A program made the translations under genes and the position numbers. This document shows, piece after piece, positions 24,365 through 27,004 of a stretch of DNA of 64,000 nt; the first letter of the stretch is position 1, and each line of letters begins with the position of its first letter. The DNA lies in assembly GCF_009914755.1 (NCBI RefSeq), contig NC_060934.1. One strand, given 5' to 3'. The stretch is from the human T2T-CHM13v2.0 reference genome, Homo sapiens. The notes under the pieces are model-generated. The model saw only the letters and a list, made by a program, of their open reading frames with translations, was not told the origin of the DNA and made no database searches.

Positions 24365-24413
24365 CTATGATCATTTCTCATGCCTGTCCATTCACCTTCC
24401 ATAGTAGCACTAC
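24365..24413 (-). other. Decayed partner cassette exon (pseudoexon) G-SATMEGEWTGMRNDH
   Basis: Good acceptor ctcattcttcccag|GT, but the donor position reads AG|CTGAGT; 49 nt; resembles the recalled mouse GDTMEGEWIDLRMYHK. Confidence 0.6.
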
Positions 24414-24836
24414 CTGGGAAGAATGAGTGTGCATCAGGCAAGGTGAGATGAATATCTACCCGACATTAACTTCCCACGATTCCACTCCTATATAAGAGGC
24501 AGGTATATTCTCTTTTTCTTCCACACATGCTTTCTGTGGCATACTAACCAGCAACTATACTCTTTACCCATTGTTTTCCAAATTTAATAGTACCTTGGAA
24601 AAAATGTCCAAGTTTTATAACACTAAGAAGTTTATAAGAATCCAAATATCATTTTTATTTTGGTTCTTGTATGTAGACCAGAATATTCTGCAATGCAGTC
24701 CACTGTAATTTACAGTGCTATCTAGAGTTGGCATAAGCTTAAAGGGAAAGAGCCCCAGATTTTAAAAATGCAGCAGAAAAAAGCCCATCTTAAGACAATA
24801 CTGACTTCCTCCAAATTAAGAAAAGAAATTCCCTAC

Positions 24837-25316
24837 TGTGATGGTTACTACTGAGTGTCAACTTGATTGGATTGAAGGATACAAAGTATTGGTCCTGGGT
24901 GTGTCTGTGAGGGTGTTGCCAAAGGAGATTAACGTTTGAGTCAGTGGGCTGGGAAATGCAGACCCACCCTTAATCTGGGTGGGCACAATCTAATCAGCTG
25001 CCAGTGCAGCTAGGATACAAGCAGGCAGAAAAATGTGAAAAGAGAGACTGGCCTAGCCTCCCAGCCTCCATCTTTCTCCCATACTGGATGCTTCCTGCCC
25101 TCGAACATCAGGCTCCAAGTTCTTCAGTTTTGGAACTCAGACTGGCTCTCCTTGCTCCTCAGACTGCAGATGGCCTATTGTGGGACCTTATGATCATGTG
25201 AATTAATACTTAATAAACTCCCCTCTATCTATCTATCTATCTATCTATCTATCTATCTATCTATCCATCCATCCATCCCATTAGTTCTGTCCCTCTAGAG
25301 AACCCTGACCAATACA
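24837..25316 (+). mobile_element. MLT2A (ERVL) solo LTR
   Basis: TG...CA termini (tgtgatggtt...ccctgaccaataca), 5-bp TSD cctac at 24832-24836 and 25317-25321, internal (TCTA)n. Confidence 0.9.
25224..25278. repeat. (TCTA)n(TCCA)n microsatellite within the MLT2A LTR
   Basis: Directly visible. Confidence 0.92.
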
Positions 25317-25832
25317 CCTACCATATAATGCCAAGAGTTCGCCACTGCCTGGCTTGGCTCTAGTTTCTCATAAGTGACCAGAGAGAGGGGAAAGGCTCAC
25401 AGTCACTAGAGGTGGAAGGGATGGGCAGAGACCAATGGTGATGCTGAAAGCAACAGGAGATGTCCACGCTGCAGGTCAGGGATGCCACGTTTATCTGATG
25501 AAGCGACATTTAGAAACGGGAAGAGTGTTTTGCAAGCTTATGGTGGTATCCTCTATGAGTTACCTTGGAAAGCTGTATCTAGTGGGTAGCATATTTATTA
25601 CCCGAGAACCAAGTTGAAAAGCTAGGGAAGAAGATTCCATTTTCTTCTCACCCTGCAGTCAGTCAGGGAAAAATTGGGGCAAGTAATTTTCCTTCTCAGT
25701 GATTCCTGGTTCTTTTGTGTAAAACAGGTGACAACATCAAAACTACCTGCAAGTCTCACTTCATGGAACACAACAGAAACTCTGCATAAGAAAAAAGGAA
25801 ATCCACAAAGCTTGTAGAATGGTAACAACTAC

Positions 25833-25885
25833 TATATATATATATATATATATATATATATATATATATATATATATATATATAT
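25833..25885. repeat. (TA)n microsatellite, about 26 units
   Basis: Directly visible, perfect. Confidence 0.95.
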
Positions 25886-26099
25886 GCACTGTTTTAGGAT
25901 GTAAAAACTCTTCAATAAAAATGCTCCAACTGGAACCTCAAGATCGAACTGCGAGTTAGAGAGAAGAGAAGGAACTGGGCTGAAGGAAGTGCAGTACCCA
26001 GGCAAAGGCACACAACTAGTGAGCAAGGGGGCAGAGACCAAGCTCAAGGTCTCAGACATCACCCCTTGAGCTGTTTCCACAATACCACATGCTACTCAC

Positions 26100-26655
26100 A
26101 TTGATTGACTGATTGATTGATTGACATGGTCTCTGTCGCCAGGCTGCAGTGCAGTGGCGTGATCTTGGCTCACTGCAACCTCCACCTCCCAGGCTCAAGC
26201 TATCCTCCCACCTCAGCCTCCCAAGTAGCTAGGACTACAGGTGCATGCCACCGTGCCTAACTAACTTTTTGTATTTTTAGTAGAGACAGGGTTTTGCCAT
26301 GTTGCCCAGGCTGGTCTTGAACTCCTGGGCTCAAGGGATCCGCCTGCCTTGGCCTCCCAAAGTGCTGGGACTACAGGCATGAGCCATCGTGCCCAGCCTA
26401 TTCACAATAATTTATTTGTAGGTACGATCATCAAAATCATCTCTATTTTGTAATATTTCTAATTCTACCCCTTTTCTTTCTTTTCTTTCTTTTTCTTTTT
26501 TTATTTTTTTCAGCCAGGGTCTCTCACTGTTGTCCAGGATGAAGTGCAGTGGTGTGATCATAACTCACTGCAGCCTTGAACTCCTGGGCTCAATGGATCC
26601 TCCCACCTCGGCCTCCCAAAGTGCTGGGACTACAGGCGTGAGCCACCGTGCCTGG
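26100..26655 (-). mobile_element. Alu (26100-26398) and internally deleted Alu (26470-26655)
   Basis: Reverse Alu sequences. Confidence 0.85.
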
Positions 26656-26961
26656 CTGGTTCTACCCTTTTCACTGTGAGTTTCTTGCATCAAGAGGGCT
26701 TTGTGTTTCCCAGAGGCCCAGCATACAGGGTGCCTGGGGGTTGGCTCCACAGACAGGGATGGCTGCCATCTGTGCCACCAGACACCCACGCAGTACAATC
26801 AACCCTCTTCTTGGCCACCATCTGCCAACACGGGGCCCAGCTGGACAACTTCTGGTTTGGTTTAAACTAGGAGAATGTCAGGAACTATTTCCCACCCTTG
26901 GCATTAGAATGAAGAACGACCGCTGCAAACTGGTTTAATTCAAAGTCAACGAGAGACTTAC

Positions 26962-27004
26962 CCATGGCTGCTCCCGCTGAAATCTGCTGCCAGATGGTGT
27001 TGTG
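26962..27004 (-). CDS. NMT2: Alternative 43-nt cassette exon in NMT2 intron 2 (HNTIWQQISAGAAM-G)
   Basis: ctaattacctgaatag|CAC...ATG G|GTAAGT: perfect donor, branch-point-like CTAAT, open in phase 0; resembles the first half of the mouse Nmt2 insert as recalled. Confidence 0.75.

What the first reader, a model, noticed from the sequence alone, without database searches (positions are those of the whole stretch)
24365..27004. A half-dead pair of cassette exons in NMT2 intron 2: one intact, its partner broken
Seen in sequence: a 43-nt exon (27004-26962; HNTIWQQISAGAAM+G; perfect GTAAGT donor) and, 2.5 kb downstream, an exon-like segment (24413-24365; GT AGT GCT ACT ATG GAA GGT GAA TGG...). The second has a good acceptor but AG|CTGAGT where a GTGAGT donor would sit, and is 49 nt rather than the 50 nt needed to restore frame. 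Recalled knowledge: mouse Nmt2 is 31 aa longer than human, with an insert close to HNAIWQQISAGAAMGGDTMEGEWIDLRMYHK at exactly this exon 2/3 junction (43+50=93 nt). Inference: this lineage lost the second exon (donor G>C plus a net 1-nt deletion) but kept the first, so the long isoform cannot be made and the surviving exon may have been repurposed.
Basis: partly seen in the sequence, partly recalled or inferred. Interest (0 to 1): 0.8.

Follow-up and report, generated by a model that had tools for sequence, protein, structure and literature searches.

The report
NMT2 cassette exon with dead partner
Human NMT2 keeps a small, well-conserved optional exon whose frame-restoring partner exon (still used in rodents and a bat) has lost its splice donor, so in people the surviving exon can only make a frameshifted, probably degraded message; this is a tidy but fairly ordinary case of exon loss.

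Summary
Exon A (27004-26962, minus strand, 43 nt, AG acceptor, GTAAGT donor) and segment B (24413-24364) are the best six-frame matches in the window to the two halves of the 31-residue insert in 529-aa rodent NMT2. For B, 0 of 500 shuffled queries reach the observed score.

The same two-exon insert is in frame in models from three myomorph rodents, a kangaroo rat and a fruit bat. The pair is therefore older than rodents, and the human copy of B is a relic.

"Repurposing" is not supported. A-only splicing is modelled or assembled in many mammals, including a hamster, and a similar 49-nt exon is modelled in a quail. In human, A alone gives a stop after 125 codons, so nonsense-mediated decay is expected. 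The RefSeq X5 reading, which starts at an out-of-frame ATG, is probably an annotation choice: that frame is poorly conserved.

When B died could not be dated, because no mammalian DNA was available. Interest is modest.

The parts
26962..27004 (-). Exon A: 43-nt cassette exon (length 1 mod 3). Reads HNTIWQQISAGAAM + G in the canonical frame.
   Evidence: Listed by the hub's RefSeq table as an exon of other NMT2 transcripts. Present in human isoform X5 (P0008). Unique in the genome.
27005..27034 (-). 3' splice site of exon A. The pyrimidine tract is weak (12 of 22 pyrimidines at -25..-4) and ends in aatAG.
   Evidence: With relic C it is the weakest tract of the 11 distinct acceptor tracts tabulated (13 rows, three of them sharing B's acceptor). 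A Pipistrellus model reads 23 nt of this stretch as exon and matches human at 20 of 21 residues.
26956..26961 (-). 5' splice site of exon A: TGG|GTAAGT.
   Evidence: 7 of 9 matches to MAG|GTRAGT, all six intron positions.
24364..24413 (-). Segment B: relic of the 50-nt partner exon. Reads (G)SATMEGEWTGMRNDHS in the frame left by exon A.
24414..24443 (-). Intact 3' splice site of B (16 of 22 pyrimidines, ...cttcccAG).
24359..24363 (-). TGAGT, the remnant of a GTGAGT donor lacking its first G. The first three bases form an in-frame TGA.
27397..27532 (-). Constitutive exon 2, ending in phase 0. Encodes the lysine-rich stretch.
   Evidence: hub annotation.
21245..21389 (-). Constitutive exon 3 (145 nt, 1 mod 3), residues 83-130 of the 498-aa protein.
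21301..21303 (-). Premature stop reached when exon A alone is included and translation starts at the canonical ATG (after 125 codons).
   Evidence: The coordinate is derived from mRNA position 457. It agrees, where the shifted-frame match ends at 21304.
55021..55023 (-). Out-of-frame ATG in exon 1 (context GGGACAATGA). It opens the RefSeq X5 reading, which crosses exon 2 and exon A in the +1 frame and rejoins the normal frame at exon 3.

Best explanation
Exon A is a real, conserved, weakly spliced cassette exon in NMT2 intron 2. [quoted passage not shown]

In the human sequence B keeps its acceptor and its open frame but lacks the G of the GT donor. It therefore cannot be joined to exon 3, and the long isoform cannot be made.

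When exon A is included alone, the 43 nt shift the frame. Ribosomes starting at the normal ATG stop after 125 codons inside exon 3, far upstream of the remaining exon junctions. Such messages should be removed by nonsense-mediated decay. Exon A thus behaves in people as an unproductive ('poison') exon.

This A-only outcome is old and shared with other mammals. It is not a new use acquired after B was lost.

Shown: the sequence features, the frames, the homology, and the presence of A-only and A+B models in other species.

Inferred: decay of the A-only message, any regulatory use of it, the one-base deletion as the historical event, and the time of loss.
For: Homology and position:
- Searches place both halves of the rodent insert on the two segments.
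- A+B is in frame in P0081 Mastomys, P0123 Nannospalax, P0124 Jaculus, P0040 Rousettus (31 aa each) and P0125 Dipodomys (32 aa).

The lesion in B:
- No GT at the 49- or 50-nt boundary; TGAGT follows nt 50.
- The hypothetical 50-nt join is open, and the 53-nt version ends in TGA.

Consequence of A alone:
- A stop after 125 codons, 56-58 nt before the exon 3/4 junction, with six more annotated junctions in the window.

Use of exon A:
- The hub's RefSeq table lists it, and human X5 contains it.
- 18 A-only cluster representatives among the 122 stored proteins classified, 120 of them hits.
- Three short spliced ORFs join A to exon 3 in the shifted frame (P0129, P0130, P0134).

Conservation of A:
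- 10-14 of 14 residues between human and the five species with an in-frame pair.
- Canid models read the exon as HNTIWQQISAGAAT.
- Translated intron beside exon A also matches: tamarin 82% and whale 64% over 39 aa, Pipistrellus 20 of 21 upstream.
- The quail alternative-exon peptide resembles it; 0 of 2000 shuffles reach the score.

Insert site:
- It lies before residue 83, and crystal cores start later.
- The NMT1 N-terminal extension 1-104 is unstructured in ribosome complexes (PMC12858966, passages).
Against: - No RNA data could be consulted. Inclusion level, NMD sensitivity and regulation of exon A in human tissues are untested.
- The one human protein model with exon A among the proteins retrieved (X5) also skips the 171-nt exon 16113-16283. 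That looks like a minor or aberrant transcript.
- The stop lies only 56-58 nt from the nearest junction, although further junctions follow.
- The bat B peptide alone is not significant (110 of 500 shuffles).
- B is not found genome-wide.
- In-frame A+B comes from predicted models in only five cluster representatives. Absence of primate A+B models is weak evidence because the database is clustered at 90% identity.
- Conservation of A was judged from proteins, not DNA.
- Dipodomys has a 53-nt B (…HST) where human has TGA|GT. So the ancestral donor position is not settled.
Confidence: 0.72

Rival explanations
1. Exon A inclusion in human is splicing noise on a neutral leftover. The exon persists only because too little time has passed since B died, and it has no regulatory role.
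For: The only human protein model with A that I retrieved also lacks another coding exon. No paper on this exon was found. A 43-nt exon would hardly change in a few tens of millions of years. B's own frame and acceptor are also still intact.
Against: Exon A and its flanks are conserved in carnivores, bats, a whale and rodents. A similar frameshifting exon is modelled in a quail. A-only models recur in 18 cluster representatives.
Confidence: 0.2
2. The RefSeq X5 reading is real. Leaky scanning to the second ATG gives a protein with a different, still basic N-terminus. It reads exon 2 and exon A in the +1 frame, and exon A serves to return it to the catalytic frame (dual coding).
For: The ATG at mRNA position 164 is the first after the canonical one. 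Its frame is open for 69 codons and matches P0008 exactly. The same frame is open in 18 cluster representatives. The alternative peptide stays rich in K and R.
Against: The canonical ATG has a strong context, GCCGCGATGG. Over exon 2 the canonical frame is 475 of 492 identical to human across 11 lineage pairs, while the alternative frame is 420 of 504. So changes fall where they are silent in the normal frame. Models with an open frame are picked by the annotation pipeline, which biases the count. A purine-rich sequence has few stops in any frame.
Confidence: 0.05
3. Exon A is used as an in-frame substitute for exon 3. Both are 1 mod 3, and the product would be a 464-aa protein, as in canid models.
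For: Vulpes, Nyctereutes and Canis models join exon A directly to exon 4 (P0131-P0133). The same join is open in human.
Against: The hub's table lists no exon other than A and the alternative first exon for the other human transcripts, and no human model with such a join was among the proteins retrieved. Exon 3 carries the conserved [12 protein letters not shown] stretch, which matches NMT1 and lies inside all crystallised cores, so its loss should damage the enzyme.
Confidence: 0.03
4. Segment B resembles the rodent exon only by chance and was never an exon in the human lineage.
For: It is 9 of 17 identical to Mastomys. It is not detected genome-wide. The bat peptide is not significant alone.
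Against: It is the best of 127,900 positions for both queries, and 0 of 500 shuffles reach the murid score. Strand and order are right. An AG lies exactly at the start and TGAGT exactly after nt 50, and the frame is open throughout. Functional B peptides of distant lineages are no more alike, at 7-9 of 17.
Confidence: 0.02

Closest known systems
The two extra coding exons of rodent Nmt2 (529-aa form)
   Same: Same place (between exons 2 and 3), strand and order. Exon A is 13 of 14 identical to Mastomys and 14 of 14 to Nannospalax. B is 8-9 of 17 identical, and the G, T, MEGEW, R and H positions are shared with Mastomys.
   Different: Human B has no GT donor, so the 31-residue insert cannot be encoded. 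Human has only the 498-aa form (PDB 9ndp chain). That mouse itself is 529 aa is recalled. The tool evidence is for Mastomys, Nannospalax, Jaculus and Dipodomys.
[quoted passage not shown]
   Same: A short cassette exon whose inclusion brings a premature stop upstream of many exon junctions. The exon and its flanks are conserved, and its acceptor is weak.
   Different: The stop arises from a frameshift, not from a stop inside the exon. Decay is not shown here. In some lineages a second exon cancels the shift. The NMT2 poison exon listed in that paper's supplement (chr10:15109040-15109215) lies, by my estimate of the offset between assemblies, 3' of this window and is a different exon.
Lineage-specific exon death by splice-site mutation (pseudoexons); a general concept, recalled
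   Same: An exon with intact acceptor and frame but a destroyed donor, still used in other lineages.
   Different: Here the dead exon was one of a frame-compensating pair. Its loss changes the meaning of the surviving partner from coding to unproductive.

Membership tests
Orthologue of the rodent/bat NMT2 two-exon insert | Lies between exon 2 and exon 3, on the gene's strand, with A before B | tested here: met
   27004-26963, then 24414-24364, both on the minus strand, between 27397 and 21389.
Orthologue of the rodent/bat NMT2 two-exon insert | Peptide similarity above chance | tested here: met
   for both A and B, 0 of 500 shuffled murid queries reach the observed score. Bat B alone is not significant (110 of 500).
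Orthologue of the rodent/bat NMT2 two-exon insert | Lengths 43 + 50 nt, restoring the frame | tested here: met
   A (43 nt) plus B cut after 50 nt is in frame with no stop, but no splice donor lies at that cut.
Orthologue of the rodent/bat NMT2 two-exon insert | Functional splice sites on both exons | tested here: not met
   A has AG and GTAAGT. B has AG but AGC|tgagtt, with no GT. The homology holds; the function as an exon does not.
Poison exon (alternative splicing coupled to NMD) | Inclusion creates a premature stop more than 50 nt upstream of an exon junction | tested here: met
   stop at mRNA 457-459. Exon 3 ends at 515, and six further junctions lie in the window.
Poison exon (alternative splicing coupled to NMD) | The exon is actually included in some transcripts | tested here: inconclusive
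   Support comes only from the hub's RefSeq table, the predicted human isoform X5, models in other species and short spliced ORFs from unnamed contigs. No read-level data were seen.
Poison exon (alternative splicing coupled to NMD) | Inclusion isoform stabilised when NMD is blocked | not testable with these tools
   Needs RNA-seq after UPF1/SMG1 inhibition or cycloheximide.
Dual-coding exon (two frames both translated) | The alternative frame is conserved as protein | tested here: not met
   alternative frame 420 of 504 identical against canonical 475 of 492 over exon 2.

The most novel reading that the evidence does not exclude
Exon A is an amniote-old frameshifting exon that sets NMT2 dosage through unproductive splicing. 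Some lineages carry a second 'rescue' exon that turns the same splicing event into a coding insertion in the ribosome-binding extension: rodents and a fruit bat use B, and ground squirrels use a different 92-nt exon. Loss of the rescue exon by a single-base deletion made the event purely repressive in the human lineage. Mouse and human would then differ in how NMT2 output is controlled.
Probability: 0.25. Interest if true: 0.5.

Novelty: new member of a known kind. Interest (0 to 1): 0.3.

Why it matters
NMT2 is a drug-target paralogue, and mouse is the usual model for it. If the 31-residue insert in the ribosome-binding extension exists in mouse but cannot be made in human, the two enzymes differ at a site that contributes to ribosome binding (shown for NMT1; PMC12858966 passages).

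The same splicing choice would give a longer protein in mouse but a doomed message in human. That would matter for reading NMT2 expression data and for any attempt to modulate NMT2 by splice-switching.

As evolution, it is a clean example of how one lost base in one exon changes the meaning of its partner. It does not open a long-standing question.

Tried and rejected
- **Own-genome search with the alignment:** The single-protein form gave only weak matches, E 0.2-0.9 at exon 2, exon A and exon 3, and did not list B.
- **Pattern scans of viral contigs, hoping for stray mammalian DNA:** 0 matches for exon A. The degenerate TMEGEW pattern gave 45 unrelated matches that I did not use. No mammalian genome DNA was available, so the branch on which B died could not be mapped.
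- **Tamarin ab initio protein P0127:** it passes next to B but ends at 24417 and jumps to 22692. It says nothing about B.
- **Exon A as a partial duplicate of exon 3:** only a 14-base pyrimidine-tract match, reached by 27 of 1000 shuffles. Dropped.
- **An embedded RNA gene as the reason for conservation:** Rfam gave 19 sub-threshold hits to SRP-RNA and microRNA families between 21921 and 26658, which I take to be Alu-derived. None lies on A or B.
- **Literature:** five searches found no paper on this exon pair.
  - The hnRNP M preprint reports a Nmt2 exon-inclusion event in mouse macrophages without naming the exon in the passages seen.
  - The passages on NMT2 in the three other papers opened do not name this exon.
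  - Supplements of preprints were closed and may hold coordinates.

Full report
**What is in the sequence**

NMT2 lies on the minus strand. Exon 1 carries 110 coding bases and exon 2 carries 136, so exon 2 ends on a complete codon.

About 390 nt downstream of exon 2, 27004-26962 is a 43-nt segment. It is preceded by …cctgaatAG and followed by GTAAGT. In the incoming phase it reads HNTIWQQISAGAAM plus one G. The hub's RefSeq table lists exactly these coordinates as an exon of other NMT2 transcripts.

A further 2.5 kb downstream, 24413 onward reads GT AGT GCT ACT ATG GAA GGT GAA TGG ACA GGC ATG AGA AAT GAT CAT AGC TGA GT…. It follows a good acceptor, …ctcattcttcccAG.

**Is it the rodent insert?**

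The protein database returned named vertebrate NMT2 models.

- A search with the exon 3 peptide listed 120 of 209 hits.
- One of these, the 529-aa Mastomys coucha isoform X2 (P0081), carries HNAIWQQISAGAAMGGDTMEGEWIDLRMYHK between …QQSSK and NPTIP…. I did not see the Mus record.
- I scored the two halves of this insert at all 127,900 six-frame positions of the window. The best hit of the 14-mer is 27004-26963 (score 70, next best 27). The best hit of the 17-mer is 24414-24364 (score 49, next best 29).
- For each, none of 500 shuffled queries reaches the observed score.
- tblastn gave E 0.031 for B within the window.
- A six-frame search of the whole genome did not list B at all. Its identification therefore rests on local context: right strand, right order, an AG exactly at its start, a donor-like string at its end, and an open frame.

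**How old is the pair?**

A profile of the junction region (alignment A1) gave 118 hits among 651 candidates. In-frame inserts occur in the following models:

| Protein | Species | Insert |
|---|---|---|
| P0081 | Mastomys | 31 aa |
| P0123 | Nannospalax | 31 aa |
| P0124 | Jaculus | 31 aa |
| P0125 | Dipodomys merriami | 32 aa; second part KTTEEDQWINLRVCHST, so a 53-nt exon |
| P0040 | Rousettus aegyptiacus (fruit bat) | 31 aa; HNTIWQPISAGAAT GGPTTAGGWIGLRIYRS |

Rodents and a bat together imply that the pair predates their common ancestor. The human copy of B is therefore a relic rather than a rodent novelty.

The B peptide evolves fast. Functional copies from distant lineages share 7-9 of 17 residues, and the human relic shares 7-9 of 17 with them. 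Divergence therefore cannot date the loss.

No primate, carnivore or ungulate representative with A+B in frame appeared. That is weak evidence, because only representatives of 90% clusters are shown.

**What is broken**

- If B is cut after 50 nt (…CAT AGC) and joined to exon 3, the reading is …GSATMEGEWTGMRNDHS|NPSVPMQ… It has no stop and is in frame with the rest of the protein.
- The bases that follow are TGAGT, which is the common donor GTGAGT without its first G.
- The bat insert also ends in Ser, and Dipodomys has …HS before one more residue.
- One missing base is therefore enough to explain the state. This is inference, since no orthologous DNA could be read.
- The Dipodomys form leaves open that the ancestral donor was the GT three bases further on, where human has an in-frame TGA.

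Either way no productive A+B message is possible:

- the 49-nt cut shifts the frame;
- the 50-nt boundary has no GT;
- the 53-nt exon ends in TGA.

**What exon A does alone**

With exon A included and translation from the normal ATG (context GCCGCGATGG), the frame shifts. A stop is reached after 125 codons at 21303-21301 in exon 3. It lies 56-58 nt before the exon 3/4 junction and ahead of six more junctions in the window. By the usual rule this message should be degraded.

The human RefSeq protein that contains exon A, isoform X5 (P0008), does not start at the normal ATG. It starts at the next ATG, 82 nt downstream and out of frame. It reads exon 2 and exon A in the +1 frame, and exon A brings it back into the normal frame at exon 3. 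The computed translation matches P0008 exactly.

I think this is an annotation choice of the longest open frame, for three reasons:

- Over exon 2 the normal frame is 475 of 492 identical to human in 11 lineage comparisons, while the alternative frame is 420 of 504.
- The first ATG is in a strong context.
- X5 also skips the 171-nt exon 16113-16283, which encodes part of the catalytic domain.

**Is A-only use new in humans?**

No. I classified the 122 proteins then stored (120 hits plus two window translations) by what precedes exon 3:

- 58 join exon 2 directly to exon 3.
- 17, plus Cebus P0010, have the alternative-frame A-only arrangement. These come from apes, Old and New World monkeys, a fox, a porpoise, cats, Pteropus, Pipistrellus, the hamster Phodopus and the guinea pig.

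Three short ORFs from unnamed contigs join exon A straight to exon 3 in the shifted frame and stop at the same place (P0129, P0130, P0134). P0129 has the murid-type residues.

A quail model (P0103) has a 49-nt exon at the same junction, again 1 mod 3. Its peptide resembles the human exon A alternative-frame peptide, and 0 of 2000 shuffles reach the score.

Exon A is far better conserved than B:

- 10-14 of 14 residues between human and the five species with an in-frame pair, and canid models read it as HNTIWQQISAGAAT.
- Models that read through its splice sites show that about 66 nt of downstream intron and 23 nt of upstream intron are conserved too.

Its acceptor tract is weak, at 12 of 22 pyrimidines.

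These are the marks of a regulated alternative exon, and they persist where no B is annotated. So 'repurposed after the loss' is not supported. A-only splicing looks ancestral, and the loss of B merely removed the productive alternative.

**Other ways lineages close the frame**

- Ground squirrels pair A with a different 92-nt exon (P0052, 45-aa insert).
- Canid models join A to exon 4, skipping exon 3 (43 and 145 nt are both 1 mod 3). That join is also open in human.
- Relics of the squirrel/mustelid exon lie at 25705-25602 in human, with stops.

The junction lies in the N-terminal extension:

- Exon 3 is residues 83-130 of the 498-aa protein, and crystal cores start later.
- In NMT1 ribosome complexes residues 1-104 are unstructured yet contribute to ribosome binding (PMC12858966, passages read).

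A disordered tether would tolerate such insertions and losses.

**Known or new**

- Five literature searches found nothing on this exon pair.
- The NMT2 poison exon in PMC13187750 (supplement row) is a 176-nt exon. By my estimate of the offset between assemblies it lies 3' of the window.
- Exon A is already annotated.
- The relic of B and the one-base explanation are, as far as these searches show, undescribed. They belong to well-known kinds: exon death by splice-site loss, and unproductive splicing.

**Limits**

- No mammalian genomic DNA, no RNA-seq and no population data were available.
- All comparative evidence comes from predicted protein models, some ab initio.
- NMD and regulation are inferred.

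Noticed in passing
window 25602-25705 (-): A third exon-like relic, 104 nt with AG and GT in human. It matches an alternative exon in Urocitellus, Marmota and Mustela models (ESLRRKITCP…LWGEKK…LAFQL). In human it has stops in both relevant frames, and 43 + 104 nt would be a multiple of 3. 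The squirrel 92-nt partner of exon A lies just downstream of it.
   Followed up: partly
window about 21665-21810 (-): This stretch matches extra coding segments of the horse X1 model and, more weakly, a grey whale model, just upstream of exon 3 (tblastn E 3e-6 for horse, 0.06 for whale).
   Followed up: no
window 16113-16283 (-): Human isoform X5 and many 441-aa models skip this 171-nt exon. The skip is in frame and removes 57 aa of the catalytic domain.
   Followed up: partly
window 26962-27004 joined to 19334 (-): Canid models splice exon A to exon 4 and skip exon 3. The same join is open in human, because exon A and exon 3 are both 1 mod 3.
   Followed up: partly
protein P0103 (quail model): A 49-nt alternative exon at the same junction in a bird. 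Its peptide resembles human exon A in the +1 frame (0 of 2000 shuffles reach the score). This hints that the frameshifting exon is older than mammals.
   Followed up: partly
window 26964-26966 (-): The ATG inside exon A sits in a near-ideal context, GCAGCCATGG. In A-only messages it opens only a 30-codon frame.
   Followed up: partly
window 24000-24282 (-): Sub-threshold matches to SRP RNA, which I read as an Alu in the sense orientation of NMT2, begin about 80 nt downstream of relic B. Similar matches lie at 26121-26397 and 26509-26656. B and relic C lie antisense within exon 2 of the lncRNA LOC107984210.
   Followed up: no
outside the window, 3' part of NMT2: PMC13187750 lists a different NMT2 poison exon (chr10:15109040-15109215 in that paper's assembly) with an intronic polyadenylation escape isoform.
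   Followed up: partly
window 27011-27026 and 21402-21415 (-): The acceptor tracts of exon A and exon 3 share TTCT(GG)GTGTCTGTCT. 27 of 1000 shuffles reach the score, so this is probably chance.
   Followed up: yes
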